A stretch of DNA of 48,147 bases from a phage: the sequence record PV636260.1, one strand, 5' to 3'. Of this stretch, positions 8,421-25,096 are shown piece after piece. Positions within the stretch are counted from its first letter, which is position 1, and the number at the start of each line of letters is the position of its first letter. The position numbers were made by a program, and so were the translations under genes. A model generated the notes under the pieces. It was not told the DNA's origin. It did no database searches and was given only the letters and a program-made list of their open reading frames with translations.

Positions 8421-8445
8421 AAAAAAAACCCGCGCAAGGCGGGTT
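8421..8445 (-). terminator. intrinsic terminator between gene I and gene J
   Basis: Minus strand AACCCGCCTTGCGCGGGTT followed by T8. Confidence 0.7.
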
Positions 8446-8449
8446 GATT

Positions 8450-9049
8450 TTAACTCATATCCTCAGCGTAAGAACCTGCTGAGAATGTTGCTCCACCTCC
8501 GGCTCGATACCCGTATGGTATAGGGAGAGGATATCCCGCCGCCGTCGTATTGACAGCACCACCGAACGCGTACGAAGGTTTATTCTTGCTTGACTGAACC
8601 TCAAAATTTGCGCCACCTGGCTGAGGTGAAATCATCTGCATCACGCCACCCAGCACCATAGCGCCACCCATCATGAATATAGATGAGGACATTGTACCCA
8701 TTAACGCCAGAGATGCGCCGCCAGTATAGAATGCGGCAACCATTATTGCCGCGCCCAATACAACCTGGAATAGACCGCCGGACTTAGAACCAGTTGGGAT
8801 AGGTACGATTCTTATCTCTTTAGCACACTTGAATTTTTCCTCTTCATGTTGCCCTACGTTAATGCCATCCACGAATATTGCAAACTTGCTACGTGATCCG
8901 ACCTCACTTTGCATATATTCTTTGAATCCATCCACCTGACTGGATAGCGCCCGGATAGCTTCCGGGTAAGAGTCAACGGCGAATTTGTGAAAGACGCCGA
9001 AGCGCCTTCCAAGTGAACCGGATAATTTGATTACTTTTACATCATTCAT
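8450..9049 (-). CDS. tail assembly protein, lambda gpI-like
   Basis: Size, position, Gly/Ala-rich hydrophobic C-terminal half. Confidence 0.7.
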   Translation of the reverse strand: MNDVKVIKLSGSLGRRFGVFHKFAVDSYPEAIRALSSQVDGFKEYMQSEVGSRSKFAIFVDGINVGQHEEEKFKCAKEIRIVPIPTGSKSGGLFQVVLGAAIMVAAFYTGGASLALMGTMSSSIFMMGGAMVLGGVMQMISPQPGGANFEVQSSKNKPSYAFGGAVNTTAAGYPLPIPYGYRAGGGATFSAGSYAEDMS

Positions 9050-9780
9050 AATTTAAGATCCTTATGGCGAACAATTAAAACAGTATGATCCTGATACCAT
9101 CCGGAATAGATATCACGTCGCGAAAGTTTGCCAAAGGCGTGATGCAAGATCTGATTATCACCCAGGTAAATCCCTGCGTGGTTCCATACCGGAACATTTT
9201 GCCCTATCTGCATGATTACCATATCCCCGAATGATGGGTTATTCTGATCTGGAATCTCAACGAATCCATCTTGCTTGTAATAATCCTGATAGAGATTAAT
9301 TCCGTACTCAGGTTTCCACCATTCAAAATTCAATCGGCGATCGCGTAACTCTACGCCGTGCTCTTTGTGCCACGCCATTACTAGCCCGTAACAGTCAAAT
9401 GAGCCTAACGACCACGGTCTACCAATCAGAGGTAATTTCTCAGGCTTAACAAATCGCATATCTCCTTCCGGTACGCTAACAATAATCCAGGTAACTTCCA
9501 TCTCGTTGCACATGCATGTGTCGTGCGCACTGGGAAGAGTTGTAGCCCCGTCTCCTGTGTGGCTGTGAACGATCGCAATCGTGGTTGAGTCTGCGTCATC
9601 CTCAATACATGCGTATTGCACTGCGTCCATCATGAAATGATTCTCAGGATCGCGATGCACGTTATCAATGCGATGGTATTTTTGCACGCGTCCTTTTTGG
9701 GTAACTACCCCGCAGCATTCTCGGGGGTATTCTTCTTGAGCGTGAGTCATGATTTCAAGTTTAATTTTTGCATTAATCAT
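9046..9780 (-). CDS. tail assembly protein, lambda gpK-like (JAB/MPN + NlpC/P60 domains)
   Basis: Start at internal ATG 9780 overlapping the upstream stop (ATGA); HSHT motif and Cys/His residues consistent with MPN and NlpC/P60. Confidence 0.75.
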   Translation of the reverse strand: MINAKIKLEIMTHAQEEYPRECCGVVTQKGRVQKYHRIDNVHRDPENHFMMDAVQYACIEDDADSTTIAIVHSHTGDGATTLPSAHDTCMCNEMEVTWIIVSVPEGDMRFVKPEKLPLIGRPWSLGSFDCYGLVMAWHKEHGVELRDRRLNFEWWKPEYGINLYQDYYKQDGFVEIPDQNNPSFGDMVIMQIGQNVPVWNHAGIYLGDNQILHHAFGKLSRRDIYSGWYQDHTVLIVRHKDLKL

Positions 9781-10559
9781 TGATTTTTCCTCTGTAGTGA
9801 AGCGACAGCACAACCGCCAAAATCCAATTCATTATTTGCACCAAATCTAAGTCGGCACGCAGTTACCGTTCCGGGGCAGAAGTCTAGGGATGGATCGCCT
9901 ACCTTGTTGTTGTCTTTGTCAAAATAACCGTTTTGCCCGTTGTATCCGCAGCCTTTCCCGGTTTTATACCATCCCCGCTGCGCCCAATAGCAAACGCTTT
10001 GCGTTAGTCGAGACGGGATCATGATGCCATCCATATCATACGGCGACGTGAGATCGAATCGGGCGACGCTCTTATCGACATAGCTCGGGCGTTCGATATA
10101 GTATACCAGTTTGCGGTAAGCGCCGTCAGCTATTGAGCCGTCAGGTTGAATTAAGTCCTTTTGAGTGATCCAGATTGTCACCTTAGCTTGCATCAATCCG
10201 TTATATGATCGAATCATTGCAGATACTCTGCTATCAATGTTCGCCACCGTCAACTGTGGTTTTGTTGCCTTGCCGGAACTATCAAACGAGATCCCGGATA
10301 TGCCGAACGGGCGCGCTCCATATTGCTCCCCACGGAATGTAATTTCTTTCGGCGGCAGCGTTCCAGTTTGCTGGGCCTGCATGATTTCCTCTGGAGTGTA
10401 CTGGATGTTCTCTCCGTGGAATCGATACACCTGAGCGCCGAACTTGCTACCATCAACTTCAATAAGGGTGATTATCTCCCCTGGATACAGTGACTGAAGG
10501 CAGTTATGAAACAGGCTCCTTCCGCTTTCTTCATCATAAAGTTTTTTGTTTTCGCTCAT
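9777..10559 (-). CDS. minor tail protein, lambda gpL-like
   Basis: Start at ATG 10559 after RBS AGGAAAAG; C-terminal cysteine cluster. Confidence 0.75.
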   Translation of the reverse strand: MSENKKLYDEESGRSLFHNCLQSLYPGEIITLIEVDGSKFGAQVYRFHGENIQYTPEEIMQAQQTGTLPPKEITFRGEQYGARPFGISGISFDSSGKATKPQLTVANIDSRVSAMIRSYNGLMQAKVTIWITQKDLIQPDGSIADGAYRKLVYYIERPSYVDKSVARFDLTSPYDMDGIMIPSRLTQSVCYWAQRGWYKTGKGCGYNGQNGYFDKDNNKVGDPSLDFCPGTVTACRLRFGANNELDFGGCAVASLQRKNQ

Positions 10560-10597
10560 TTTCTTTTCCTCTTGTTTAGTTGCAACCATTCTACAGC

Positions 10598-10622
10598 TAC
10601 AAAAAAACCCGCGCAAGGCGGG
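10598..10622 (-). terminator. intrinsic terminator between M and L
   Basis: Hairpin CCCGCCTTGCGCGGG + T7 on minus strand; 22 bp identical to the terminator at 8421-8445. Confidence 0.65.
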
Positions 10623-10638
10623 CTTTTGTCATGAAGTG

Positions 10639-10992
10639 CTATTCCATAGATGTAAACTGCTCCATAAACGTTACATTAATTTCCATCACGTCACGTGATA
10701 CTGGTTTCGCTCCCAAACTATTTGGCTTAACTACCCATATCCCGATCTTCCCGTCTGGAGGCGTCCATGCGAACGGCTTGATGCGGTGAGAATCGCAGAA
10801 GTCGTAAACAGCCATGAAATCTTCCCCAGCATAGACAACTGAATACTCGCGCCGAGTGGTGTTAAATCCAGAAGATGCAAGCTGCATGTATCCGTTACCA
10901 AACTGTATGGATCTGTCATTGTTGGTAGTGGTAAGGGAGCCACCGCCCCCTTGAACCTGCGTACACCAACTGAAAGTGTCAAGTGTCGCCAT
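10639..10992 (-). CDS. minor tail protein, lambda gpM-like
   Basis: RBS CAGGAGG; 117 aa; position between tape measure and L. Confidence 0.75.
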   Translation of the reverse strand: MATLDTFSWCTQVQGGGGSLTTTNNDRSIQFGNGYMQLASSGFNTTRREYSVVYAGEDFMAVYDFCDSHRIKPFAWTPPDGKIGIWVVKPNSLGAKPVSRDVMEINVTFMEQFTSME

Positions 10993-10994
10993 TA

Positions 10995-13868: not shown

Positions 13869-13885
13869 ATAACCCCCTTATATAC

Positions 13886-13910
13886 AAAAAAACCGCCAAA
13901 CGGCGGCTTA
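13886..13910 (-). terminator. intrinsic terminator-like hairpin upstream of the tape measure gene
   Basis: CCGCCGTTTGGCGG + T7 on minus strand. Confidence 0.5.
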
Positions 13911-14542
13911 GTTATTCTGCTTAGCAATCATTTCAAGCGCTTTCGCTTCCATGATCCTAACGTCCTGCAATGCCAGTTCTTCATCTTCTATTTTATAGAT
14001 TTTAAACAACATAGGCAAAACATTATAGTCAAGACCATAAGCGCCAGCGCCTGAACTTCTCCACTGAGTGAGCATTGATGTAAAAACATTCCAAGCCTTC
14101 ACCATTTCAGCGTCGCCAATTATCGTTTCAGGTTCCTCGTCTTCATAGTCTGAAAGACTTAAACCAACCGATCGCAATTGTTCCTCTGTTGGCGGCTTCT
14201 GATATAACAGATAGACCGCCTTTTTTAGTTTTTTGCGCGGTGTCCGGCAAGAGCCTTGATGTAAGTCGCTGTCAGGTTGTACGCTGCTGAAGGATAATAC
14301 TGAACCAGTTTTCGCGCATTTTCTTCGTTAAATTCTTCTTCAAGGTTCCATCCTGACGCGATCTTGGTAATGAACTCGCTGTCGTTCATTTCTCCCTGGT
14401 TGGCATACATATCCTGAACTTCTTTACTGGAAAGGTGGCGTACAGTGAAAATGATCGTTGCATCTTCACCGTTAGGCATGGTGAAGGTAACTGGAAGTTT
14501 GAAGTCTGGAAGTTGACCAAGAATAAAATTAAATTTAGCCAT
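13908..14542 (-). CDS. tail assembly chaperone -1 frameshift fusion product (gpGT-like)
   Basis: Slippery heptamer A_AAA_AAC (complement of 14228-14234) at the last codons of G; the -1 frame is open into ORF 13908..14177. Confidence 0.7.
14225..14542 (-). CDS. tail assembly chaperone (gpG-like)
   Basis: RBS CAGGAGAAA; 105 aa; immediately upstream of tape measure with slippery site at its 3' end. Confidence 0.8.
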   Translation of the reverse strand: MAKFNFILGQLPDFKLPVTFTMPNGEDATIIFTVRHLSSKEVQDMYANQGEMNDSEFITKIASGWNLEEEFNEENARKLVQYYPSAAYNLTATYIKALAGHRAKN

Positions 14543-14564
14543 GATATTTCTCCTGATTGGTTAA

Positions 14565-14583
14565 TGGCACTTTTTGTTAAAAG
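14565..14583 (+). promoter_or_regulatory. copy of the ATAGCAC...TAAAAC element (TGGCACTTTTTGTTAAAAG), plus-oriented within the minus-strand tail module
   Basis: 17/19 match to the repeated element; TACGAT 18 bp downstream. Confidence 0.4.
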
Positions 14584-14626
14584 AGAATAGTGCAAACTTG
14601 ATACGATGATTTTACAGAAATGAATA

Positions 14627-14647
14627 AGGGGGCGCAAGCCCCCTTGT
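14627..14647. terminator. hairpin terminator downstream of the major tail gene
   Basis: GGGGGCGCAAGCCCCC followed by T-rich tract on minus strand. Confidence 0.6.
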
Positions 14648-14656
14648 AGATATGAT

Positions 14657-15325
14657 TTAGGCACCAGGTGATGCCAGAGCGGATGAAACGAAAGTGAAAT
14701 CACCCTTCAGGGATACGGCGAGTTGTACCGTTTCCATTTCGTTTACTTGCGTAGATGGAATGTCGTTAAAAGACAAGATACCAGCCCACATGCGCATCTC
14801 GTTCGCTTTTGGAACATACATCCGAACCGCAGTTACCTGACCAGAAGAATCCAGCTTACGCAGAATAGGGTAGATCGGGTTATCAAATTCGTGCGCGAAT
14901 GTGTAAGTTAGCGAGATCGCAGATTTAAACGTTGGGATCTGCTGTTCTTTATCGTCGGACAAGCACTGATAAGTATAATACTGCTGCTCGCCGCCGTCCT
15001 GACCAATCTCCTGTACACAAGGAATCTCAGTCCAGCCAGTAATTTTTGCAAAGCTCATCGTACCGCCAGCCGGGAAAACAAGAGTATCAGAGGTGTCAAT
15101 CCCAGCGAGAGTGATGCTTGTTTCCTGGGCGTCAGTAACAATTAGCACTCGACTAACCATCTTGGCCCAGGTTGACTGAGTTACAATAACGTAATCACCT
15201 TTTGCCAAGTCGCCCTTAGATGCAACTGTAGCAACAGGATTTTTTGCGTTAGTGACAGCGGTCGCCTCGATCTCTTCTCCGCGAGAGGTTTCCACGAAAA
15301 TTTGCGCGCCATTTGGTAAGTGCAT
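14657..15325 (-). CDS. major tail protein (gpV-like)
   Basis: RBS AAAGGAGA; 222 aa; position upstream of G/GT. Confidence 0.8.
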   Translation of the reverse strand: MHLPNGAQIFVETSRGEEIEATAVTNAKNPVATVASKGDLAKGDYVIVTQSTWAKMVSRVLIVTDAQETSITLAGIDTSDTLVFPAGGTMSFAKITGWTEIPCVQEIGQDGGEQQYYTYQCLSDDKEQQIPTFKSAISLTYTFAHEFDNPIYPILRKLDSSGQVTAVRMYVPKANEMRMWAGILSFNDIPSTQVNEMETVQLAVSLKGDFTFVSSALASPGA

Positions 15326-15326
15326 A

Positions 15327-15725
15327 TTAAGTCTCCTTTGTGTCTACTCGTACTGTAAAGCGAACCGGAATCATCCATCCGCTTTCGTGTTTAACAATTT
15401 GATGCACGATTGCACCTTCGAAAATATAACCAACGTTAAGCATTTTACCATCTTTGAAAAAATCAGCAATCTCTTTTGCTTTCAATCTTGCCTCATCAAC
15501 GCCGGAACCAGGAGGGAACACAACTCCGATCTGAACTATTGCGATGTAAGATTTACACTTTCGGTCAATTGATAGATAAAGCGTATCACCTTCAATGTAG
15601 TTGAACCTTAGCCACATGCCGCCATCCTTCGGAGGTGTAAAGTTCCTGTTTTCCATGTAGTGAGGAAAGTCTCTATACTTCGACAGAAAGGCGGCGCGCG
15701 CCGCCGCTGATAACTCATAGTGCAT
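15327..15725 (-). CDS. tail terminator protein (gpU-like), putative
   Basis: RBS AAGGAGA; position directly upstream of the major tail gene in lambda-like order. Confidence 0.55.
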   Translation of the reverse strand: MHYELSAAARAAFLSKYRDFPHYMENRNFTPPKDGGMWLRFNYIEGDTLYLSIDRKCKSYIAIVQIGVVFPPGSGVDEARLKAKEIADFFKDGKMLNVGYIFEGAIVHQIVKHESGWMIPVRFTVRVDTKET

Positions 15726-16944: not shown

Positions 16945-16972
16945 TAAAAAAAGGCGCATTAAGCGCCTTGTT
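16945..16972 (-). terminator. intrinsic terminator
   Basis: AAGGCGCTTAATGCGCCTT + T7 on minus strand. Confidence 0.65.
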
Positions 16973-16974
16973 GA

Positions 16975-17265
16975 TTAATAGTATTCGCCGCCGTCTTCAA
17001 GCTCTTTTACGCTCATCTTATCCCACGGATCAGGTTTTTTAAGTTTAGCCATCTCTGCGCGGATTTCCCGGTTGGTGGCACTGTCGTCTTTTACTTCGAT
17101 TTCTTCGCGAGCAATCAAGAAACGCAGCCCGGGCAATTCAAGTGCGGATGCTGGGAGTGTCACCTCTTCATCCGGGAGAACCTTTGCGAATGAGCCATCT
17201 TCAAGACGGAACATCTGAAGCGCTACACCAACGTTTACGATAACAACAGTTTTTTCTTTAGCCAT
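16975..17265 (-). CDS. hypothetical structural protein
   Basis: RBS GGAGAAA; 96 aa between capsid and connector genes. Confidence 0.55.
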   Translation of the reverse strand: MAKEKTVVIVNVGVALQMFRLEDGSFAKVLPDEEVTLPASALELPGLRFLIAREEIEVKDDSATNREIRAEMAKLKKPDPWDKMSVKELEDGGEYY

Positions 17266-17280
17266 TTTGATTTCTCCAAT

Positions 17281-17310
17281 AAAAAAGGGACCAACTAAGT
17301 TAGTCCCTAT
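17281..17310 (-). terminator. intrinsic terminator downstream of the major capsid gene
   Basis: GGGACTAACTTAGTTGGTCCC + T6 on minus strand. Confidence 0.65.
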
Positions 17311-17314
17311 AATA

Positions 17315-18274
17315 TTACACGCCAGTGATTAAGACAATAGTCATCGGACGATAAATTGTAAGGCCAGTACACTTGGAGGTGCAAGGCACTTTAAAGTGAA
17401 GGTCTTTCGGCTGCGCTGGCAGCATGTTAAATGCTTCCGGGATTTCGATGGACATATTCATCGGATTTTTTTCGTACACCAGTACGCCTTTAGTCCCCGC
17501 ACCGTCGATATCTTCAAGCTCTGCGATAGAGTCGATTTCGATACCAGCATTCTGAGACTTGAAATAGTCCAGGTAAGACATGGTAGTTTCAGGCATACGG
17601 ATCGCCAGAACCTTACGCATGGACGGCGGGATCAGAATGTTGGTTGCACGATGCTGACCGCGAGTAATCGTCTCGATGGTTTCGATTGCCTGAGTCAATT
17701 CAGCTTCTGCCGTTTCCGGTTTCTGAGTTGCGCCATCCATCCACTTACCGGAGGTAATTTTGGTGATGTTCGGATGATTGAACACGGACACGATCTTGTG
17801 CGGCGCGGAACCTTTGAACACCAGACGGTTAACCAGTTGGTCATGCGCTAACTGACATGCACTTGCCTTACGAGTTGACAGTGGGCGACCAGTTGCCTGA
17901 CCCGCTTTGATTTCGTCGATTGAGATCAGATACGCGTTACCCAAACGGAACACTTTACCGAACTCAGAAGTACCCAGGGCATCAACAAGCGGCAGGTCGT
18001 CGGTGTAGTCCGCGATAATCTGAGCCGTGCCAACCTTATCAAAGGTCATGTATTCGAACGTCTTATCAGTCGGAGAAAGATCGGTTGTAACCGGGAATAC
18101 GCGTAGAGCGGAGCCGACCGGGTAGTCTTCTTCATAGGACTGGCTTTTAATGCGGTGTAGTTCCTGAGCGGTCCAGATACCCATTGTTGCGGCTGCATCC
18201 TGTTTTACGCCAGCCTGGATCAGATACATTTCAACATTGCTTTTATCTGCTTCATCAAATTTTTTAGTAGTCAT
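17315..18274 (-). CDS. major capsid protein
   Basis: RBS GGAGAAG; 319 aa; flanked by strong terminators; position after scaffold/decoration genes. Confidence 0.8.
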   Translation of the reverse strand: MTTKKFDEADKSNVEMYLIQAGVKQDAAATMGIWTAQELHRIKSQSYEEDYPVGSALRVFPVTTDLSPTDKTFEYMTFDKVGTAQIIADYTDDLPLVDALGTSEFGKVFRLGNAYLISIDEIKAGQATGRPLSTRKASACQLAHDQLVNRLVFKGSAPHKIVSVFNHPNITKITSGKWMDGATQKPETAEAELTQAIETIETITRGQHRATNILIPPSMRKVLAIRMPETTMSYLDYFKSQNAGIEIDSIAELEDIDGAGTKGVLVYEKNPMNMSIEIPEAFNMLPAQPKDLHFKVPCTSKCTGLTIYRPMTIVLITGV

Positions 18275-18295
18275 GATTACTTCTCCGTAGTTAAT

Positions 18296-18325
18296 AAAAA
18301 AGCCGTGATTATGTTCACGGCTTCA
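18296..18325 (-). terminator. intrinsic terminator immediately upstream of the major capsid gene
   Basis: AGCCGTGAACATAATCACGGCT + T6 on minus strand. Confidence 0.65.
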
Positions 18326-18328
18326 ATA

Positions 18329-18348
18329 ATAGCACTTTTTGTTAAAGC
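18329..18348 (+). promoter_or_regulatory. copy of the repeated element (ATAGCACTTTTTGTTAAAGC), plus-oriented
   Basis: Sequence match; lies between decoration gene stop and capsid terminator. Confidence 0.4.
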
Positions 18349-18365
18349 GTCAAAGTGTTTTTATG

Positions 18366-19133
18366 TTATGCATCAACCTCTGGCTCTGGCACTGCTTCTA
18401 CGCGATAAGCAATGGTTGCCGTCGTCTTGCTGGCATCGTTAGCCGTCCATGTGATATTGAAATCACCGACCGATTCTCCACCAGCAGGAGTTACAAGACC
18501 TGAGTCAGGATCGATAGTAGCGATGTTGGTGGCGTCAATTGACCACTTGCCAGTTTTATCATCAGCGTTCACAGGAAGAACATTAGCTACGCACTGAATC
18601 GTAACATTGTTCGGCTGAGGACTTTCCTTGTCGGTAGTGATCGTAGCTGATTCAACAAGAACAACTGGAGGTGGTGGCGGTGGGACGATGAAAGCATTTT
18701 GTTTCACCTGAACCTCAATGATGTAGCCGTCTTCATGCTTAACAAATCCACCAGCGAAGGTCCAACCTGCGGAACCAGATCCACCAGTAACAACGCCACC
18801 AGATCCAAATTGCAACTTTGAGAATAAGTCGGGAGCCTCATCAAGAGAAGTAAGCGTCCACATGCGACCGTGAGAAACTACGTTGCACACTTCGCCGTCT
18901 AAGATTTTACCGCTCAGGTGTTCATATTGAGAACGGAAAGCGATACCGTAAGGAGTCCCGCCATCAGAAAGTACTTTGACGACTTTCACACCATCAACGA
19001 TGCCGACAACCTGAACCGCCGCGCCGAACTCAATGTCACCTTGAGCCACACAAGCGCCATCAATATTGTAGGTTGAAGTATCAGAAAGATTTCCCGGACA
19101 CGCCGGGCGCAACATTAAATTTTCGTAAGCCAT
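18366..19133 (-). CDS. head decoration-like protein with C-terminal Ig-like (Big_2-type) domain
   Basis: N-terminal 150 aa paralogous to 19196..19672 (DTSxYNIDGACV...GAAVQVV...); PPPPPP linker then beta-rich domain. Confidence 0.65.
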   Translation of the reverse strand: MAYENLMLRPACPGNLSDTSTYNIDGACVAQGDIEFGAAVQVVGIVDGVKVVKVLSDGGTPYGIAFRSQYEHLSGKILDGEVCNVVSHGRMWTLTSLDEAPDLFSKLQFGSGGVVTGGSGSAGWTFAGGFVKHEDGYIIEVQVKQNAFIVPPPPPPVVLVESATITTDKESPQPNNVTIQCVANVLPVNADDKTGKWSIDATNIATIDPDSGLVTPAGGESVGDFNITWTANDASKTTATIAYRVEAVPEPEVDA

Positions 19134-19148
19134 AATGATTTCTCCATA

Positions 19149-19182
19149 AAAAAAGGACTATCCAAAAAAAGGATAGTCCCCA
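19149..19182 (-). terminator. intrinsic terminator between the two decoration paralogs
   Basis: AGGACTATCC-T7-GGATAGTCCT + T7. Confidence 0.6.
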
Positions 19183-19195
19183 TATTAAACGCTAA

Positions 19196-19672
19196 TTACA
19201 GTTGATGCAACTGAACCTCAACAAGCTGAATATCTTTGTATTTAGTCCAACCGCCAGCGTAGGTCCAGGTTGTTTCGATCGTGCCATCAGATTTTTCCTG
19301 ACCATCAACATCAAGTTTAACGGCAGAGCCGAAAGTTGGTGCTTCGGTGGATTTGGAAAGCATCCATACTCGACCTGAAGTCATCACGTTGATAGCGCCG
19401 CCATCTTCGTAAATCATCTGATTTTGAGCGTTAACAGTCTGCCAGTGAGAACGGATTGCCACGCCGTAAGGAGTGGTTCCGGTAGTAAGAGCCTTAACCA
19501 ACTTATGACCATCAACCGCCTGAGCTTGAACAACTTGTACGGCAGCGCCAACAAGAACATCACCTTCATTAACGACACAAGCGCCGTCAATATTGTACTT
19601 TGAAGTATCCGCAACCATACCCGGAAGCGCAATCGCCATATCTCGCTGATAAGATGCATTAATTTGTGCCAT
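19196..19672 (-). CDS. head decoration-like protein
   Basis: RBS AGGGGAAA; paralog of the N-terminal domain of 18366..19133. Confidence 0.65.
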   Translation of the reverse strand: MAQINASYQRDMAIALPGMVADTSKYNIDGACVVNEGDVLVGAAVQVVQAQAVDGHKLVKALTTGTTPYGVAIRSHWQTVNAQNQMIYEDGGAINVMTSGRVWMLSKSTEAPTFGSAVKLDVDGQEKSDGTIETTWTYAGGWTKYKDIQLVEVQLHQL

Positions 19673-19683
19673 GATATTTCCCC

Positions 19684-20796
19684 TTACATTACTTTGCTTA
19701 AACGTGAATTTGGCGTAACAGGCGCGGCGTCGTTTTTCTCTTCCGGCTTACCGCCTTCGATAGAGTCGCCTTTTACTGCTTTACGCTGAATAGCCATGAT
19801 ATCAGAATCTTTAGCAACATCAAACATAGCGTCGATATATGCGTCTGATTTTTCACTAACATCTTTATCAAGCATGGCTTTAACTACGGCAATCTTGACG
19901 TCTTTGATATCAAGACCATCATGTTTGACGCCTGCGGTTTCTGCTACTGCGGTAACTTCTGCGCGTGCGGCGGCATCAGCTTTTTGCTTCTCTACTTCAG
20001 CCTTCACAAGTTCCGGCAGAGAGTCAACCTTAACCTTCAGCGCATCGCGCTCAGCTTCGAAGCCATCAGCTTTCCCCTGAATGGTTGCAATCTGCGCGGT
20101 TAATTTTTCGATATGGTTCGCAACGTCTTCGGTTACTTCCACATCAACTGAGTCGATCTTAATTTTTTTCATTTGCTTGTCCTCGTTAGTTAATTGAACG
20201 TTATTATCATACGGGAACTCCTGTTCGGCATCAAGATTTAATTTAGCAATTCCCGCGCGACCTTTGAAAACAAGTGCGATATGGTTGACCTTGATATTAG
20301 TCTGTACCGCGTCAAATTTCACCCAGCCTTCAGGTGGCGCTTCGTCCTGTTTCATATCCTCTTCGAAGATATATTCTCCAGTCTCATTTGAACCCCATCC
20401 CGGTTTATCAATATCTACTGACGTGTAGCCAACAGATAATTCACCAGCTTCTTTTGCTTTAGCCTTGCTGATCGCGTAGTCGCTGTAAATGCTTAAAGGG
20501 ACTTCAACTCCAACACCTGAAGCAATACCAGCGCCAGCGCACGAACCTACAACAACGTCCTTAGCATTTTGGGGAGTCACCGTTACGTGACCGACTGTGA
20601 TCGGCTTGCCTGCAAAACTTTGCAAGGAATCTTGCTTGAAAACTTCGGACGCCGGACGGAACTCAACTCGATCGCCGTGCGGCGTTTTGTAAACCTGAGC
20701 GCCGATTCGCGCCACTATTGGGCGGTCAACTAAAAAACCGTTATCATCAAAGTGCGCCTTGATTTTTACTGAATCGAATCTTTGCTTTGCCTTCAT
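19684..20796 (-). CDS. scaffolding protein (possibly with N-terminal prohead protease-like domain)
   Basis: Start at ATG 20796 after CAGGAGA; Ala/Lys/Glu-rich coiled-coil C-terminal half; position. Confidence 0.6.
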   Translation of the reverse strand: MKAKQRFDSVKIKAHFDDNGFLVDRPIVARIGAQVYKTPHGDRVEFRPASEVFKQDSLQSFAGKPITVGHVTVTPQNAKDVVVGSCAGAGIASGVGVEVPLSIYSDYAISKAKAKEAGELSVGYTSVDIDKPGWGSNETGEYIFEEDMKQDEAPPEGWVKFDAVQTNIKVNHIALVFKGRAGIAKLNLDAEQEFPYDNNVQLTNEDKQMKKIKIDSVDVEVTEDVANHIEKLTAQIATIQGKADGFEAERDALKVKVDSLPELVKAEVEKQKADAAARAEVTAVAETAGVKHDGLDIKDVKIAVVKAMLDKDVSEKSDAYIDAMFDVAKDSDIMAIQRKAVKGDSIEGGKPEEKNDAAPVTPNSRLSKVM

Positions 20797-20798
20797 TT

Positions 20799-21560
20799 TT
20801 AATCTCCTGTAGAAAAGTCTGGAACAGCCCAACAGCGGCAATTGTATTCCTCACCCGGGAATACGTGATCGGAATCTACCGCTATGCGCTTACCTTCCCA
20901 TCTTACATGTTTTTCACGTTCACGTAAATCCATCACCCCACGCCAGAAATAGTAAGAGACTCCAGCGTCTTTTATGCGCTGACGCATTAGTCTACTGTTC
21001 CAGGTTCCAACAATTCCCGACGCTCTATTTTTGGCCCAATTCCGGTAAACACCAAATCGCTCATTAGCAAGTTCAACAACAAAATCCTTGCTTTTACCCT
21101 GACCGGATGCAGCACGAAGTTTATCAGTGAAATCAGTAACCATGTTGGCAGCAAATTTCCTGATAGAAGTAGTCACCTGCGATCGCCACAGATTATATTG
21201 TCCTGAGTACCAGCTTTCGGCAGCGGCAGGACCAATCAGGGCAAGTAGCATTACGGCTTGATTCTTCTTACCTCCAGCATTTCGAGCTATTCGCAACCAC
21301 TGCTTAGAGTTGAATTTATATATAGTTAGCGCAACGGATGATAGAGAACCAATAATCGGAGCGATGAGTGATTCAACGTAATCAAGCAATGACCTTTCTG
21401 TCTGATCTATCTCTTCGTCGGTAGCATCAAATTTCATCGGCTTTAATTCGTCACGCATTTTTTCAGTTAGTTTGGCTGCAACATCCTGTAGGGAGCGCGA
21501 CATTGCGCGCTCGCTCATTTCAGGATAGCGCCACTGTGTTGCAACGCCATTAATTTTCAT
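20799..21560 (-). CDS. head morphogenesis protein (Mu F / SPP1 gp7-like)
   Basis: RBS GGGGAGAAG; position after portal. Confidence 0.6.
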   Translation of the reverse strand: MKINGVATQWRYPEMSERAMSRSLQDVAAKLTEKMRDELKPMKFDATDEEIDQTERSLLDYVESLIAPIIGSLSSVALTIYKFNSKQWLRIARNAGGKKNQAVMLLALIGPAAAESWYSGQYNLWRSQVTTSIRKFAANMVTDFTDKLRAASGQGKSKDFVVELANERFGVYRNWAKNRASGIVGTWNSRLMRQRIKDAGVSYYFWRGVMDLREREKHVRWEGKRIAVDSDHVFPGEEYNCRCWAVPDFSTGD

Positions 21561-22833
21561 CTTCTAACTTCTCCCCTAATCCCGGTTCCGGTTCGGTTGT
21601 TTCTTCCTGTTCGCGAATGTTGATGTTATTACCATCCTTGAGTTTGAACTCAGGGGCAATGGATCGCAACGTGTCTCGAGCTTCTTCCAGATCGATGATT
21701 TGCTCAGTGATAGCTTTCGTGACTGACTCAACGTTATTCTTCGTGATCTCTGATTCCTCTTTCTTACTCGGAACAGACAAAGGCTCAAACTCGATCGACC
21801 ACTCTTGCTCGTCAACAATGAACGGCAGCAAGAACTCAAGAAGAGGCCTGTAATCTTCCTCACGCTTACGATCTACCAGCTTATAGAAAGTCTCAAGCGC
21901 TGTGTTTTGGCTCGCTGATACGCCGCCTACGTTCTTATTTTTGATGATAATCTCATGAATCCCTGAAAGGGAAACAATACGATCCATCTTGCTCGATAAG
22001 AACTCAGGCACTCCGCTGATATCAGAGTTTAGAACATCGTATTCTTCCGTCTCAGCATCGATACCGATCGCACGGCCTACTCCGGAGTTGTCATCAACCT
22101 GAGCAAGTCGCAGGCGCGCAGCATACTGAGCATCGTCATCATCGCACATTTCGGCAAGACCTTTGACCTTCCATACCGCCTGTTGCTTACGCCGCAGGAT
22201 CTGAGTCGCAAGTGATTCGCAATAGTCGTAGTCGCAGATTGCATCAATCAGTGACTTATTCAAAACTGAAGCACCCCACCCCTGATTCTGCTTGCGAATC
22301 TGAGGGGTTACTCGCTCACCATCAGCAATAAAAATTCTTGTGTGGTGGATTAAGTAAGGTTGAAGATTATCGCCAGGAGATACCTTGTATATCTCAGGCT
22401 CACCATAGCGAGGCGATCGAGCGTTGGTTACTCTCTTTTCAACGGTGATTGCAAATCGATCGTAAACACGCACGCCCTCAAGTTTAGCGCCAGGTTTAAC
22501 GGGGCTGGTTAGCATTCTGTTGTCTTTGATGATTGCCACAATAGCAGCCCCACCGTATAGTCTCGCCCAGCAAAGAACGTCAACCAAGCTAGAATCAATT
22601 TTGTAACTATCCCACAGAGACTTGAACTCTTTTTCATCCTTGACGCCTGACATTTTAAATCCAGCCGTCACCATCTCTTCCGGGATAACATCCACAATTC
22701 GCTTCGCGGTTGCGTTGTCGTTGTAGAAAGATCCTACGTGATATGATGCATCAGACATAAAGAATGGCTTAGGCGATCCGTCTGCACCGCCGTTAAAGAT
22801 ATCGTTATATCCATCATGCTTAACAATTTTCAT
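21550..22833 (-). CDS. portal protein
   Basis: Start at ATG 22833 after GGAGGAAAC; 427 aa, acidic C-terminus; position after TerL. Confidence 0.8.
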   Translation of the reverse strand: MKIVKHDGYNDIFNGGADGSPKPFFMSDASYHVGSFYNDNATAKRIVDVIPEEMVTAGFKMSGVKDEKEFKSLWDSYKIDSSLVDVLCWARLYGGAAIVAIIKDNRMLTSPVKPGAKLEGVRVYDRFAITVEKRVTNARSPRYGEPEIYKVSPGDNLQPYLIHHTRIFIADGERVTPQIRKQNQGWGASVLNKSLIDAICDYDYCESLATQILRRKQQAVWKVKGLAEMCDDDDAQYAARLRLAQVDDNSGVGRAIGIDAETEEYDVLNSDISGVPEFLSSKMDRIVSLSGIHEIIIKNKNVGGVSASQNTALETFYKLVDRKREEDYRPLLEFLLPFIVDEQEWSIEFEPLSVPSKKEESEITKNNVESVTKAITEQIIDLEEARDTLRSIAPEFKLKDGNNINIREQEETTEPEPGLGEKLEDEN

Positions 22834-22844
22834 GTTTCCTCCAA

Positions 22845-22875
22845 TAAAAAAGGCCGTCAATTGACAGCCTTGATT
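22845..22875 (-). terminator. terminator-like hairpin between TerL and portal
   Basis: AAGGCTGTCAATTGACGGCCTT + T6. Confidence 0.5.
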
Positions 22876-22887
22876 ATATCTCATTTA

Positions 22888-24456
22888 TTACCGCTTAACC
22901 ATCCCGGCGAGCCGCTTCATTCTCTCGATAGGATCATCAATGGTCAGCAATTCGATGTTCGCCGCATCCATGAAGTTATCGACGATATCATCATGCGGAT
23001 GGGTGTCATCGTAAGTGAAGGCGCTGTGTTCAGCGATAATTTCAGCAAGCATGGGGTGCTCTTCTGGCAGAACCACACGCCCGGCTTTAATAACTGGCTG
23101 AGCATCCATAGCGCGGGTAACTTTGTCTTTGTTACGCTGCAACGGAGTGATAGAGATCGGAGTCTTTTTCCTGAGGTTCTGTATAAGGCCCGTACCGCTC
23201 GCTTTATCTTCCACGTAGATTTTTCGAAGCACGCCCATTGATTTATTGTGTCTCCATGCCTGATTAACGAAAGCGGTAAATTGTTTCTCCATATCCGGCG
23301 CTTCCCACTTACCGCGAATGCCGTCAATAAAGTAAACCTTATCGTTCTTCTTACCCCACAAGCAAAAGACTGTGTAGTCGTTTAGCTCGCCTGTCTTCTG
23401 AGCGGTATCGGCAGTGATGAAACGGTAGTCGTACTTACCCGGATCTGGTTCGTCAGCGTCAAGGCTGCTGCCGTAATAAGTCCACCATTCCGAGTTAAAC
23501 ACGGAGCCACCAAGCGCGATCGGCTTCTGCTGATACTGAGAGTCAAAGGTGTACTGGTCAGCTTCGCGAAGCGCTAACAGGTCATGTACACTTTCCTTAC
23601 TGGGCCAGAACGAGTAATGCTTGACGCCATCAAGTTCGACATACTCAGACGATAAAACGTCGCGCTCGAAGTAAGGTTGTAACCAGTCAGGAAGCGTCTT
23701 TCCGTATTCTTCCGTGACCAGCGCCGGGATCGAGATCTGGTCAAACTCAATACCCATACCTCCATTCATCATAAACCAAGTTGAATCCTGCGCGTGCAGT
23801 CGCTGCTGGATTGCGATAATCGGCGTCTCGTTGTGCATACGACGGGATCGTATGGTGTTCTTCAATAGCATGTGAGTACGCTCACGCTTAACCTTTGAGA
23901 ACATATCGTCAGGCTTGTCTATATCGTCGAGCATTACCATCCCGGAGAATCCCGGCATCATATAGCCACCACGCGAACCTGTGATTCGACCTCCGGCTGC
24001 TGCGGATATTAGCTCGAACCAGACCTTGCCATCTTCGTTAAGAACTTGCATCTCTTCATCTTTCGATGTGCCGAACTTACAGGGCCACAACTCTTGGAAC
24101 TCTTTGCTGCTGATAATCTCACGAACTCGCTTACTGTTACGCTTTACAAGGCTATCTGCAAATGAAACGTTAAGGTTTCGTACCTTCTTGCACTTGAGCA
24201 TTGCGTAAACAGGAAGGTGAATTGAGAACACCTCGGTTTTACCCGAACCTGGCGTGACGTTAAAGATAGTGTTCCCGCGTCGACCTGCAATTATTTCCTC
24301 CACTTCGTGACATAGGTAAAGGTGATGCCAGTTAGGCTGGAACTGCTGCGCCTGCATAAGCTGGAACCAGATCCGAATCATTTTTTCGAAATTGGCCTCG
24401 CTCATTTTCTTGATCGCTAACTTCTGCGTTGCGTTAAGGTCTTCCCATTGAATCAT
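22888..24456 (-). CDS. terminase large subunit
   Basis: Start at ATG 24456 after GGGAGAC; Walker A-like TPGSGKT; 522 aa. Confidence 0.85.
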   Translation of the reverse strand: MIQWEDLNATQKLAIKKMSEANFEKMIRIWFQLMQAQQFQPNWHHLYLCHEVEEIIAGRRGNTIFNVTPGSGKTEVFSIHLPVYAMLKCKKVRNLNVSFADSLVKRNSKRVREIISSKEFQELWPCKFGTSKDEEMQVLNEDGKVWFELISAAAGGRITGSRGGYMMPGFSGMVMLDDIDKPDDMFSKVKRERTHMLLKNTIRSRRMHNETPIIAIQQRLHAQDSTWFMMNGGMGIEFDQISIPALVTEEYGKTLPDWLQPYFERDVLSSEYVELDGVKHYSFWPSKESVHDLLALREADQYTFDSQYQQKPIALGGSVFNSEWWTYYGSSLDADEPDPGKYDYRFITADTAQKTGELNDYTVFCLWGKKNDKVYFIDGIRGKWEAPDMEKQFTAFVNQAWRHNKSMGVLRKIYVEDKASGTGLIQNLRKKTPISITPLQRNKDKVTRAMDAQPVIKAGRVVLPEEHPMLAEIIAEHSAFTYDDTHPHDDIVDNFMDAANIELLTIDDPIERMKRLAGMVKR

Positions 24457-24495
24457 GATTAAGTCTCCCATGTGGGCGCTAGCGCGCCCGTAACG

Positions 24496-25020
24496 TTAAA
24501 GCATGTCAAGAATGCTATTTACTGCCTCTTTCATTGCATCCTCAGTAGTGGCGACTACTGTCGATGCGGAAGCTGACGAGTTTTCGATATTGATTGAGGC
24601 TGGCTTATCGATTCCGAGATCCTTACCGATAAAGGAGGCATTAATAACACCGTTGGCGGCAAGCTGGAATTTTTGCTCGTTGATTACCGATTCCACAAAC
24701 TCCATAACCTCACTGTATTCTTCCTCTCGCTTCCACTTAATGATTGCGGCCTCGCTTGCACCGATGAATAGTCGGTATCCGGTCCAGGTGAAGACTCGCG
24801 GCTTATGAACTAGCGATTCATAAACGCCACCCTGAAAGCTGGCTGATTCTGACGCCTTGATTGCGTTGTCCTCAGCCCATTCGAAATACTTAACTGACAG
24901 ATCGAATAGTTGCTCAGGCGTCATTGCCCGGTTTTTAGCAAGAACAGTGCCGAACTTTTTCTTGTATAGCTCTTTGAAATTACCTCCCTGGACTACGGGG
25001 GCGTTCTTAGGTTCACTCAT
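24496..25020 (-). CDS. terminase small subunit
   Basis: RBS AGAGGA; 174 aa directly upstream of TerL. Confidence 0.65.
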   Translation of the reverse strand: MSEPKNAPVVQGGNFKELYKKKFGTVLAKNRAMTPEQLFDLSVKYFEWAEDNAIKASESASFQGGVYESLVHKPRVFTWTGYRLFIGASEAAIIKWKREEEYSEVMEFVESVINEQKFQLAANGVINASFIGKDLGIDKPASINIENSSASASTVVATTEDAMKEAVNSILDML

Positions 25021-25035
25021 AAATCAATCCTCTTT

Positions 25036-25057
25036 GTTTAACATTTAGTGCTATTTT
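25036..25057 (-). promoter_or_regulatory. copy of the repeated element upstream of TerS
   Basis: Minus strand ATAGCACTAAATGTTAAAC directly upstream of the RBS. Confidence 0.45.
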
Positions 25058-25073
25058 ACCATATTGCAGGCAT

Positions 25074-25096
25074 AAAAAAACCCGCCGAAGCGGGTT
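25074..25096 (-). terminator. intrinsic terminator ending the leftward early operon
   Basis: AACCCGCTTCGGCGGGTT + T7 on minus strand. Confidence 0.7.

What the first reader, a model, noticed from the sequence alone, without database searches (positions are those of the whole stretch)
8421..25096. Intrinsic terminators placed directly upstream of most major structural genes
Strong hairpin plus T-run terminators precede J, L, tape measure, the connector gene, the 96-aa gene, major capsid, the Ig-decoration gene, portal and TerS, usually within 10-40 nt of the next RBS and with no promoter in between. Late transcription must therefore read through them, implying antitermination or deliberate attenuation that sets subunit ratios. 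Two of them (8422-8443 and 10601-10622) are identical over 22 bp.
Basis: seen in the sequence. Interest (0 to 1): 0.6.

Follow-up and report, generated by a model that had tools for sequence, protein, structure and literature searches.

The report
Terminator–promoter cassettes between T1-like late genes
The hairpin terminators between the structural genes of this T1-like phage are real and conserved but already annotated in phage T1, and most overlap a conserved promoter, so the late genes probably form many short transcription units and need no antitermination.

Summary
The window is a T1-like siphophage (94% identical to Shigella phage Sfin-3). Its structural genes are on the minus strand.

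There are two more, one before the tail chaperone gene and one after J. My strict scan finds 12 on the coding strand of the late region, against 0.44 ± 0.66 in shuffles. Eleven of them lie in the 4% of that region that is intergenic. The 22-bp identity is exact.

The same junctions carry a terminator in 85-100% of up to 60 relatives, with 11-20 different hairpin sequences per well-sampled junction. All other gene junctions carry almost none. The T1, SA30RD and TLS records already list these terminators, and the T1 authors called the units "transcriptons".

The claim "no promoter" fails. At G, L and J the hairpin loop holds a conserved TTGCGC, and a conserved TAnAAT follows exactly 17 nt later, after the T-run. 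At portal, gp48, capsid and gp46 a conserved −10 box abuts the hairpin, so the start site falls inside the stem. Four more promoter-like motifs sit inside coding regions under synonymous-site constraint.

Only the terminators before gp45 and before the tape measure gene have no downstream promoter before the next gene, so they must be read through. I found no antiterminator homologue and no transcript data.

The parts
25074..25096 (-). Terminator before TerS: hairpin 25096-25079 (AACCCGCTTCGGCGGGTT) plus T-run 25078-25074. It closes the upstream same-strand early gene block.
   Evidence: present in 16 of 17 relatives that have both flanking genes
25053..25089 (-). Candidate TerS promoter. The cassette is paralogous to the J and L modules: TTCGGC 25089-25084, 17 nt, CAATAT 25066-25061. 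An alternative extended -10, TGGTAAAAT, lies at 25061-25053. This is the weakest of the modules because the loop has no TTG.
   Evidence: (0 of 7 distinct sequences have TTG in the loop)
25036..25054 (-). Copy of the family direct repeat ATAGCACnnnnnGnTAAAC in the TerS leader, just before the RBS
   Evidence: the repeat is described for TLS in PMC11447400
22846..22871 (-). Terminator before portal: hairpin 22871-22850 plus TTTT 22849-22846, then GGAGG RBS
   Evidence: 51 of 60 relatives, 16 distinct hairpins, compensatory changes at 3 of 8 pairs
22873..22901 (-). Promoter-like pair abutting the portal hairpin: TGGTTA 22901-22896, 17 nt, TATAAT 22878-22873 (1 nt before the stem)
   Evidence: TAtAAT is near-invariant in an unbiased MAFFT alignment; 19 of 20 distinct sequences at offset 0-1
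19148..19180 (-). Terminator before gp48 (cement plus Ig-like decoration protein): hairpin 19180-19154 plus T-run 19153-19148
   Evidence: 27 of 27 relatives, 13 distinct hairpins; Pfam Phage_cement and Big_2
19182..19210 (-). Promoter-like pair abutting the gp48 hairpin: TTGCAT 19210-19205, 17 nt, TAATAT 19187-19182
   Evidence: 12 of 17 distinct sequences, mostly offset 0-2. The -35 lies in the last codons of gp49, so its conservation is ambiguous.
18296..18324 (-). Terminator-type hairpin before the major capsid gene: 18324-18299, T-run to 18296
   Evidence: 23 of 27 relatives
18326..18353 (-). Capsid promoter TTGACG 18353-18348, 16 nt, (TGC)TATTAT 18331-18326, 1 nt before the hairpin. It overlaps a reverse-oriented direct repeat (18329-18346 on the + strand).
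   Evidence: 10 of 12 match, TG present; annotated as promoter in SA30RD; conserved in all 13 distinct sequences
17281..17308 (-). Terminator after the capsid gene and before the 96-aa gp46: hairpin 17308-17286 plus T-run 17285-17281
   Evidence: 48 of 49 relatives, 16 distinct hairpins, compensatory changes at 3 of 7 pairs
17309..17337 (-). Promoter-like pair abutting the gp46 hairpin: TTGTCT 17337-17332, 17 nt, TATTAT 17314-17309 (0 nt before the stem)
   Evidence: (9 of 12); 21 of 21 distinct sequences carry a -10-like box, mostly at offset 0-3
16946..16969 (-). Promoter-less terminator (attenuator) before connector gp45: hairpin 16969-16951 plus T-run 16950-16946, then RBS
   Evidence: 45 of 52 relatives, 17 distinct hairpins; no -10 enrichment on either side, no conserved box beyond coding
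15442..15469 (-). Embedded promoter-like motif inside the tail-terminator gene gp42, about 117 nt upstream of the major tail protein start: TTGCTG, 16 nt, (TGG)TAAAAT
   Evidence: about 90% of distinct loci; Gly GGT 55/55 (baseline 35%), Asp GAT 46/46, Lys AAA 49/49
14609..14645 (-). Terminator-promoter cassette before the tail chaperone G: hairpin 14645-14626, loop -35 TTGCGC 14637-14632, 17 nt, -10 TAAAAT 14614-14609
   Evidence: terminator in 60 of 60 relatives; spacer 17 nt in 25 of 30 distinct sequences
13886..13909 (-). Promoter-less terminator (attenuator) between the chaperone G/T genes and the tape measure gene: hairpin 13909-13890 plus T-run 13889-13886, then RBS
   Evidence: 57 of 59 relatives, 13 distinct hairpins; no promoter box
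10588..10625 (-). Terminator-promoter cassette before L: hairpin 10625-10605, loop -35 TTGCGC 10616-10611, 17 nt (includes the T-run), -10 TAGAAT 10593-10588
   Evidence: terminator in 56 of 56 relatives; 22 of 24 distinct sequences carry a -10 at offset 9-13
8409..8445 (-). Terminator-promoter cassette before J: hairpin 8445-8427, loop -35 TTGCGC 8437-8432, 17 nt (includes T-run 8426-8421), -10 TATAAT 8414-8409
   Evidence: terminator in 53 of 54 relatives; -10 in 28 of 28 distinct sequences; spacer 17 nt in 17 of 19
8376..8394 (-). Direct-repeat copy ATAGCACAAAAAGGTAAAC in the J leader, overlapping the RBS region; conserved in relatives
4894..4919 (.). Bidirectional terminator between J and the convergent plus-strand ORF 3930-4895
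   Evidence: (-15.9 kcal/mol on minus, -12.5 on plus); T1 and SA30RD annotate the equivalent site

Best explanation
The hairpin-plus-T-run elements are genuine intrinsic terminators. They cut the late region of this T1-like phage into about ten short transcription units. Most are built as one compact cassette with a sigma-70-type promoter, so a cassette stops RNA polymerase arriving from upstream and starts a new transcript for the next gene block. Two designs occur. In the first (before G, L and J, and probably TerS) the -35 hexamer TTGCGC sits in the hairpin loop and the -10 hexamer follows the T-run exactly 17 nt later, so the new transcript starts downstream of the terminator. In the second (before portal, gp48, major capsid and gp46) the -10 hexamer lies 0-2 nt before the hairpin. 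The predicted start site then falls inside the 5' arm, the new RNA lacks a complete stem, and it is not terminated. Two terminators have no promoter downstream of them before the next gene (before gp45 and before the tape measure gene). They must be read through and probably act as attenuators that keep the low-copy genes directly behind them low (connector, tail completion and tail terminator proteins; tape measure and M). The high-copy tail tube gene further down the gp45 block regains a promoter embedded in the preceding gene. What is shown: existence, excess, positional conservation and covariation of the hairpins; conservation and fixed geometry of the hexamers. What is inferred: that the hexamers fire, where transcripts start, how efficient each terminator is, and what confines these promoters to late times.
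For: Terminators: 12 on the coding strand against 0.44 +/- 0.66 in shuffles, 11 of them in the 4% of sequence that is intergenic. The same ten junctions carry a terminator in 85-100% of relatives whose capsid protein is 57-100% identical, while the other twelve junctions carry 0-2. There are 11-20 distinct hairpin sequences at eight junctions (7 at capsid, 4 at TerS), with compensatory changes. An in-gene hairpin (15705-15690) used as a control is not conserved. Independent predictions by WebGeSTer and TransTermHP are deposited for a 96% identical phage, and terminators are annotated in T1. Promoters of the first design: the loop keeps TTG although stems differ. The TTG-to--10 spacer is 17 nt in 25/30, 9/14 and 17/19 distinct sequences, while right-arm length (5-11) and hairpin-to--10 distance (9-13) vary in compensation. 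The -10 is found in 35/35, 22/24 and 28/28 distinct sequences and stands out in unbiased MAFFT alignments. Promoters of the second design: the -10 box sits at offset 0-2 in 19/20 (portal), 7/7 (capsid), 17/21 (gp46) and 10/17 (gp48) distinct sequences, and the TAtAAT block is near-invariant. Transcripts starting 6-8 nt after the box keep only -3 to -6 kcal/mol of a -14 to -16.5 kcal/mol hairpin. Embedded promoters: four motifs in coding DNA with invariant synonymous sites, for example Gly GGT 55/55 against 35%, Leu CTT 59/59 against 26%, Ser TCT 54/54 against 17% and Ile ATA 33/35 against 8%. Literature: the T1 late region is described as 'transcriptons' flanked by terminators and containing RpoD promoters (PMC11447400).
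Against: I found no transcript 5'- or 3'-end data for any T1-like phage. Several -35 hexamers are weak (TTGCGC, TGGTTA and TTGCAT each match 3 of 6). A plain consensus scan shows no promoter excess (34 against 29.5 +/- 5.1). The TLS authors, using strict criteria, accepted only three sigma-70 promoters and said they could not confirm transcriptons. Some -35 boxes lie in the last codons of the upstream gene, so their conservation is ambiguous. The conserved loop TTG could partly reflect cassette duplication or gene conversion. If these promoters were plain sigma-70 promoters the late genes would fire early, so a timing control is missing from the model. The TerS module lacks the loop TTG.
Confidence: 0.6

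Rival explanations
1. Processive antitermination. One or a few late promoters load an antitermination factor (protein or RNA, as with lambda Q/N or HK022 put), and the modified polymerase reads through all the terminators. The terminators would only silence late genes before the factor appears.
For: Strong terminators lie in series on the coding strand, 16-24 nt from the next start codon at six junctions. More than half of the 40 non-structural ORFs scanned have no recognised family and could hide a factor. Direct-repeat copies sit in the initial transcribed region of the TerS and J units and could in principle be a loading site.
Against: No Q, N, sigma or RNA polymerase homologue in 40 non-structural ORFs. 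No Rfam element. boxA-like motif found once against 1.8 expected. This model does not explain why -35/-10 pairs with fixed 17-nt geometry are conserved at eight junctions and at four in-gene sites.
Confidence: 0.12
2. Pure leaky-terminator cascade. There are no functional local promoters, and every hairpin is a partial terminator. Transcript abundance then steps down along the operon and sets the subunit ratios.
For: It is logically required at the gp45 and tape measure junctions. A terminator lies directly after high-copy genes (capsid, gp48, tail tube, chaperone G).
Against: Ten such terminators in series would leave very little RNA for distal genes. The high-copy tail tube gene lies downstream of five terminators yet must be abundant. 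Conserved promoter geometry and synonymous-site constraint argue for local initiation.
Confidence: 0.15
3. The hairpins mainly act on RNA fate, not on polymerase. They would be 3'-end protective stem-loops or processing sites that give each gene block its own mRNA half-life, with termination secondary.
For: Stable GC-rich stems lie at the 3' end of each gene block, and the structure is conserved with sequence turnover. This is compatible with the other models.
Against: Every hairpin keeps an immediately adjacent T-run in nearly all relatives, which is the defining feature of intrinsic termination and is not needed for 3' protection alone. The stems are too short (6-10 bp) for RNase III.
Confidence: 0.08

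Closest known systems
Phage T1 'transcriptons' (Roberts, Martin and Kropinski 2004, as summarised in PMC11447400), with terminators annotated in NC_005833 (T1), OL960579 (SA30RD) and TLS Supplementary Table S1
   Same: Homologous genes and the same junctions. T1 annotates rho-independent terminators before TerS, portal, gp48, gp46, gp45, G, the tape measure gene, L and J, and after J. SA30RD adds the capsid hairpin and its promoter. TLS lists T28-T50 at the same places. The late region is described as modules flanked by terminators that contain RpoD promoters.
   Different: No real difference in the elements themselves. My analysis adds the fixed overlap geometry (loop -35, or -10 abutting the stem), its conservation in 63 loci, and the in-gene promoter-like motifs. 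The TLS authors could not confirm promoters with strict consensus criteria. I could not read the 2004 paper, so some of this may already be in it.
T7 T-phi terminator after the major capsid gene 10 (from my own knowledge)
   Same: An intrinsic terminator lies directly after the most abundant structural gene, and partial read-through supplies the lower-copy genes behind it. This matches the promoter-less terminators before gp45 and the tape measure gene.
   Different: T7 uses its own RNA polymerase and has one such late terminator. Here there are ten, most paired with host-type promoters.
Lambda late operon: pR', tR' and Q antitermination (from my own knowledge)
   Same: Late structural genes lie behind intrinsic terminators on the coding strand.
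   Different: Lambda has a single late promoter and a Q protein that makes polymerase terminator-resistant. Here I found no Q homologue and there are many conserved local promoters.
Filamentous phage f1/M13 transcription cascade (from my own knowledge)
   Same: Several host-type promoters are combined with intrinsic terminators to grade the expression of structural genes.
   Different: f1 has many promoters sharing few terminators, which gives nested transcripts. Here promoter and terminator are fused one-to-one.

Membership tests
Intrinsic (Rho-independent) terminator | GC-rich stem-loop of about 5-11 bp with a short loop | tested here: met
   11 intergenic hairpins, -10.4 to -15.9 kcal/mol, stems of 6-10 pairs
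Intrinsic (Rho-independent) terminator | T-run immediately 3' of the stem on the transcribed strand | tested here: met
   At least 4 T in the first 5 nt at 10 of 11 sites. The G-junction site has a poor tail in this window (TTATTCAT) but a canonical one in most relatives.
Intrinsic (Rho-independent) terminator | More frequent than chance, and placed at gene ends on the coding strand | tested here: met
   12 against 0.44 +/- 0.66; 11 of 12 in the 4.1% intergenic fraction; 3 on the opposite strand
Intrinsic (Rho-independent) terminator | Structure kept by selection (conserved position, compensatory changes) | tested here: met
   85-100% occupancy at ten junctions and 0-2 hits elsewhere; both-sides changes at 3 of 7 and 3 of 8 pairs
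Intrinsic (Rho-independent) terminator | RNA 3' ends form at the T-run in vivo or in vitro | not testable with these tools
   No Term-seq or in vitro data found for T1-like phages
Sigma-70-type promoter | -10 hexamer TAnnnT with A at position 2 and T at position 6 | tested here: met
   TATAAT (J, portal), TAGAAT (L), TAAAAT (G), TATTAT (capsid, gp46), TAATAT (gp48); conserved in unbiased alignments
Sigma-70-type promoter | -35 hexamer TTGnnn 16-18 nt upstream of the -10 | tested here: met
   Spacer is 17 nt at seven sites and 16 nt at the capsid site in the window. 17 nt in 25/30, 9/14 and 17/19 distinct relatives. The hexamers are weak (3-5 of 6), and the portal -35 TGGTTA and TerS TTCGGC lack the TTG.
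Sigma-70-type promoter | Mapped transcription start or demonstrated activity | not testable with these tools
   No data found; only predicted promoters exist in the deposited records
Lambda-type processive antitermination (Q or N) | Encoded antiterminator protein homologue | tested here: not met
   Pfam scan of 40 non-structural ORFs: none. Only a weak Cro-like helix-turn-helix in 45522-45974. Many ORFs remain without a family, so a novel factor is not excluded.
Lambda-type processive antitermination (Q or N) | nut/boxA or put-type RNA site | tested here: not met
   boxA-like YGCTCTTWA found once against 1.8 expected; no Rfam match
Lambda-type processive antitermination (Q or N) | A single late promoter feeding the whole late operon | tested here: not met
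   Conserved promoter-like pairs at eight junctions and four in-gene sites
T1 transcripton architecture | Late gene blocks flanked by rho-independent terminators at the T1 junctions | tested here: met
   One-to-one correspondence with terminators annotated in NC_005833 and OL960579

The most novel reading that the evidence does not exclude
Promoters of T1-family phages are systematically nested in hairpins, so that each hairpin acts only on RNA arriving from upstream and never on the promoter's own transcript. Three forms occur: -35 in the loop (G, L, J); -10 abutting the 5' arm with the start site inside the arm (portal, gp48, capsid, gp46); and -10 inside the loop of T-run-less hairpins at the roughly 15 early promoters, which carry the ATAGCAC...TAAAA repeat at a fixed 17-nt distance. 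This would be a genome-wide 'self-insulating promoter' design, with the 21-nt repeat as a fixed-geometry upstream element read by an unidentified host or phage factor that also sets timing.
Probability: 0.35. Interest if true: 0.55.

Novelty: already known. Interest (0 to 1): 0.3.

Why it matters
For the finding as written, it matters little. Intergenic terminators in the T1 late region have been in the public T1 record since 2004 and are routinely annotated in relatives.

What is worth keeping is the resolution of a small open point. The T1 authors proposed terminator-flanked 'transcriptons' with promoters. The 2024 TLS re-annotation could not confirm the promoters. The comparison of 63 loci here shows that weak-looking hexamers are conserved at fixed geometry, overlapping the hairpins and even inside coding DNA.

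If these promoters are real, T1-like phages tune capsid and tail subunit ratios with compact terminator-promoter cassettes. Such cassettes are directly reusable as insulated expression parts. They also give a clear set of coordinates for a 5'/3'-end mapping experiment.

Tried and rejected
1. My first energy-only terminator scan was too permissive (66 and 69 hits on the two strands). I replaced it with a strict one.

2. Plain consensus promoter scanning gives no excess over shuffles, so I did not use it as evidence. I used conservation and geometry instead.

3. A first promoter profile anchored on the best hexamer was circular, because A2 and T6 were required. I repeated it with MAFFT alignments anchored on nothing.

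4. Literature searches for transcript mapping in T1-like phages found nothing. The one RNA-seq paper that mentions Drexlerviridae sequenced a T5-like phage. A search for the bare motif ATAGCAC was useless. The 2004 T1 paper is not held.

5. Rfam and tRNA scans found nothing.

6. I considered the in-gene hairpin 15705-15690 as a twelfth terminator. I rejected it because it is confined to close T1 relatives and follows from the codons for AAARAAF.

7. I tried to read the early-region repeat as a -35 element. TTGCTA lies 22 nt and ATAGCAC 31 nt from the -10, so neither fits the sigma-70 spacing. Its role stays open.

8. A column-wise pairing count over 13 early hairpins was only partly informative because the stems are not all in one register.

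9. Locus L052 lacks several T-runs, but it also shows frameshifted translations, so I discounted it as an error-prone sequence.


Full report
WHAT THE WINDOW IS

The 18 kb around the finding is 92-94% identical over its full length to Shigella and Escherichia phages of the T1 group (Sfin-3, ISF002, pSf-2, ADB-2, JMPW2). The structural genes are on the minus strand and run from TerS (25020-24496) to J (8372-4923). I fixed the start codons by homology with T1 and by their ribosome binding sites.
- gp48 is a cement protein with an Ig-like Big_2 domain.
- 17315-18274 is the major capsid protein.
- gp46 is a 96-aa DUF7444 protein.
- gp45 is DUF4054, a connector-type protein.
- 14657-15325 is the tail tube protein.
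- 14225-14542 is a tail assembly chaperone.

Yes. The consensus scan finds 34 terminator-like sites against 18.4 ± 4.4 in shuffles, and the strongest are on the minus strand in the gaps between genes.

I then used a stricter definition: a single hairpin of at least 5 pairs, loop of at most 8, energy of at most −9 kcal/mol, and at least 4 T in the next 5 nt. With it, the coding strand of 4880-25120 has 12 sites. In 200 dinucleotide shuffles the mean is 0.44 ± 0.66 and the maximum is 3. The opposite strand has 3. Eleven of the 12 fall in the 821 nt (4.1%) that are intergenic.

The other two intergenic sites are one before the chaperone gene G (14645-14626) and a bidirectional one after J (4919-4898). 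The hairpin ends 16-24 nt before the start codon at portal, gp48, capsid, gp46, gp45 and tape measure, and 45-58 nt before it at L, J and TerS.

Window 8422-8443 and 10601-10622 are identical over exactly 22 bp. They belong to a 45-nt cassette present three times, before J, L and TerS (family D1).

IS IT ALREADY KNOWN?

Yes.
- The T1 RefSeq record annotates rho-independent terminators before TerS, portal, gp48, gp46, gp45, G, tape measure, L and J, and after J.
- The 96% identical phage SA30RD carries the same set, predicted by WebGeSTer and TransTermHP, plus a promoter directly before the capsid hairpin.
- The 2024 re-annotation of TLS lists the homologous terminators T28 to T50.
[quoted passage not shown] It adds that for TLS, under stricter promoter criteria, this could not be confirmed.

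I found no transcript mapping for any T1-like phage.

CONSERVATION

I fetched 63 loci around homologues of the capsid gene (capsid identity 57-100%). I mapped all 23 late genes onto them by tblastn. I then asked at every gene junction whether a terminator is present.

Loci with a terminator, out of those with both flanking genes adjacent:

| Junction (upstream of) | With terminator |
|---|---|
| TerS | 16/17 |
| portal | 51/60 |
| gp48 | 27/27 |
| capsid | 23/27 |
| gp46 | 48/49 |
| gp45 | 45/52 |
| G | 60/60 |
| tape measure | 57/59 |
| L | 56/56 |
| J | 53/54 |

The other twelve junctions have 0-2. Eight of the ten junctions carry 11-20 different hairpin sequences; capsid has 7 and TerS has 4. 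Alignments of the gp46 and portal hairpins show pairs kept through changes on both sides at 3 of 7 and 3 of 8 positions. As a negative control, the only in-gene site (15705-15690, inside gp42) is confined to the close T1 group and follows from the codons for AAARAAF. The intergenic hairpins are therefore under selection for structure and for position.

THE 'NO PROMOTER' CLAIM

First design: cassettes before G, L and J.
- The hairpin loop reads TTGCGC.
- Exactly 17 nt further on, after the T-run, lies TAAAAT (G, 14614-14609), TAGAAT (L, 10593-10588) or TATAAT (J, 8414-8409).
- Across relatives the stems change but the loop keeps TTG.
- The spacer from TTG to the −10 box is 17 nt in 25/30 (G), 9/14 (L) and 17/19 (J) distinct sequences. 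Meanwhile the right-arm length (5-11 nt) and the distance from hairpin to −10 (9-13 nt) vary in a compensating way.
- The −10 box is present in 35/35, 22/24 and 28/28 distinct sequences.
- It stands out from variable flanks in MAFFT alignments made without reference to it.
- The TerS cassette is a paralogue, but its loop is TTCG and its boxes are poorer, so I rate it as uncertain.

Second design: before portal, gp48, capsid and gp46.
- A −10-like box lies 0-2 nt before the first base of the stem: TATAAT 22878-22873, TAATAT 19187-19182, TATTAT 18331-18326 and TATTAT 17314-17309.
- Each has a TTG-type or TGG-type hexamer 16-17 nt upstream.
- The box is at offset 0-2 in 19/20 (portal), 7/7 (capsid), 17/21 (gp46) and 10/17 (gp48) distinct sequences.
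- It is the best conserved block in the portal alignment.
- A transcript that starts the usual 6-8 nt after such a box begins inside the 5' arm. The hairpin then drops from −14 to −16.5 kcal/mol to −3 to −6 kcal/mol, and what remains no longer abuts the U-run.
- Both designs give the same logic: the hairpin stops polymerase coming from upstream but is not seen by the cassette's own transcript.

TERMINATORS WITHOUT A PROMOTER, AND PROMOTERS WITHOUT A TERMINATOR

Before gp45 (16969-16951) and before the tape measure gene (13909-13890) the T-run runs into the RBS. No conserved box is found on either side beyond what the coding sequence explains. These two must be read through. The genes directly behind them encode low-copy proteins (connector, tail completion, tail terminator; tape measure and M).

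The high-copy tail tube gene also lies behind the gp45 terminator, which looked inconsistent. A scan for TTGnnn-N16-18-TAnnnT conserved by position inside the late genes resolved this. About 90% of distinct loci carry TTGCTG-16-(TGG)TAAAAT inside gp42 (window 15469-15442), about 117 nt before the tail tube start. Its synonymous sites are frozen: Gly GGT 55/55 against a 35% baseline, Asp GAT 46/46, Lys AAA 49/49.

Three more in-gene motifs behave the same way:
- In gp50 at 20234-20206: Leu CTT 59/59 against 26% and Tyr TAT 59/59. The next codon is GAT, CAT or AGT, which always keeps TAnnnT.
- In the 3' end of gp50 at 19823-19796, before the cement gene gp49: Ser TCT 54/54 against 17%.
- In the T part of the chaperone gene at 14018-13990: Ile ATA 33/35 against 8%.

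TESTS FOR ANTITERMINATION

- Pfam scans of 40 non-structural ORFs found no Q or N antiterminator, no sigma factor and no RNA polymerase. They found only a weak Cro-like helix-turn-helix in the homologue of T1 gp23.
- Rfam found nothing.
- A boxA-like motif occurs once against 1.8 expected.
- More than half of these ORFs have no family, so a novel factor cannot be excluded. Nothing positive supports one.

MOST LIKELY MECHANISM

The late region is a chain of short units:

| Unit | Genes | Promoter |
|---|---|---|
| 1 | TerS-TerL | own (uncertain) |
| 2 | portal to gp49 | own, plus two embedded in gp50 |
| 3 | gp48 | own |
| 4 | capsid | own |
| 5 | gp46 | own |
| 6 | gp45 to gp42 | none; read-through only |
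| 7 | tail tube | embedded in gp42 |
| 8 | G/GT | own |
| 9 | tape measure, M | none; read-through only |
| 10 | L-K-I | own |
| 11 | J | own |

Abundant proteins (decoration, capsid, tail tube, chaperone) get their own promoter and an immediate terminator. The low-copy connector, tail completion, tail terminator, tape measure and M genes sit behind a terminator with no promoter.

The following are shown: the elements, their excess, their conservation and their geometry. The following are inferred: that the hexamers fire, where transcripts start, the efficiency of each terminator, and the late timing. The 21-nt direct repeat in the TerS, J, G and capsid leaders or promoters may bear on timing. 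I put 0.6 on this reading.

RIVALS

- Processive antitermination: 0.12.
- A pure leaky-terminator cascade without local promoters: 0.15.
- Hairpins acting mainly on RNA stability: 0.08.

The first two do not explain the conserved promoter geometry. The third does not explain the universally retained T-runs.

VERDICT

Attenuation holds at two sites, 'no promoter' is wrong, and antitermination is unsupported.
- The feature is already known for this phage family.
- The extra value here is comparative evidence that settles in favour of the 'transcripton' idea and defines how promoter and terminator overlap.

Noticed in passing
window 26885, 28180, 28700, 30335, 31060, 31627, 41977, 43000, 45509 (minus strand) and 33746, 34210, 35843, 45958 (plus strand); variants at 2114 and 35327: The 21-nt family repeat ATAGCACnnnTTGnTAAAAnn (ATAGCAC occurs 21 times against 5.1 expected) is followed at a fixed 17 nt by a -10-like hexamer (TATAGT, TATGAT, TACAAT, CATAAT and others), often with TGn before it. 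In many copies that hexamer sits in the loop of a hairpin whose arms differ between copies but stay complementary; the register varies between copies. No T-run follows, except at 45958, where the hairpin is a true terminator. It reads as a composite early promoter nested in a hairpin. The TLS paper lists the repeat but not this geometry (PMC11447400).
   Followed up: partly
window 15442-15469, 19796-19823, 20206-20234, 13990-14018 (all minus strand): Four sigma-70-like hexamer pairs lie inside coding regions (gp42, gp50 twice, chaperone T). They are conserved in 82-100% of distinct relatives with frozen synonymous sites. The ones in gp42 and in the gp50 3' end sit about 115-125 nt before the tail tube and cement genes. 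The one in mid-gp50 could drive a nested scaffold product.
   Followed up: partly
window 8376-8394 and 25036-25054 (minus); 14564-14582 and 18329-18346 (plus): Late-region copies of the repeat do not lie upstream of promoters. They are in the leaders of J and TerS just before the RBS, and in reverse orientation in the G leader and across the capsid promoter, where GTGCTAT supplies the TGn and the start of the -10. They may be operator sites linked to late timing (family D17).
   Followed up: no
relatives L024, L034, L037, L038, L047, L048, L051 and others, portal junction: In many relatives the portal junction carries a full repeat with ATAGCAC exactly 17 nt upstream of the TATAAT that abuts the terminator hairpin. 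That is 14 nt closer than at the early promoters. The T1 group, including this window, has lost the repeat there but kept the TATAAT.
   Followed up: no
window 17268-17288, 19136-19156, 22833-22853: A T-run plus RBS cassette (CCTTTTTTATTGGAGAAATCA on the minus strand) is repeated three times, before gp46, gp48 and portal. The gp46 and gp48 copies extend into the first codons (families D5 and D7).
   Followed up: no
window 19048-19103 and 19575-19630; genes 18366-19133 and 19196-19672: gp48 and gp49 are paralogues. Both match the Phage_cement family and share an 80% identical 56-nt stretch. gp48 has an added Ig-like domain, and a terminator-promoter cassette separates the two genes (family D3).
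   Followed up: no
window 15690-15705 (minus): GGCGGCGCGCGCCGCC plus TTTCTG inside gp42 scores as a terminator. It is confined to close T1 relatives and follows from the codons for AAARAAF, so it is probably a by-product.
   Followed up: yes
locus L040, junction between M and L: One relative has an insertion of several hundred bases carrying an ORF with its own RBS directly after the L-junction terminator, in place of the usual promoter box.
   Followed up: no
locus L052 (IMGVR_UViG_2974611450): This relative lacks the T-run or the hairpin at the TerS, gp46 and J junctions. It also gives frameshifted translations in gp42 and gp50, so it looks like an indel-prone sequence and not a biological loss.
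   Followed up: no
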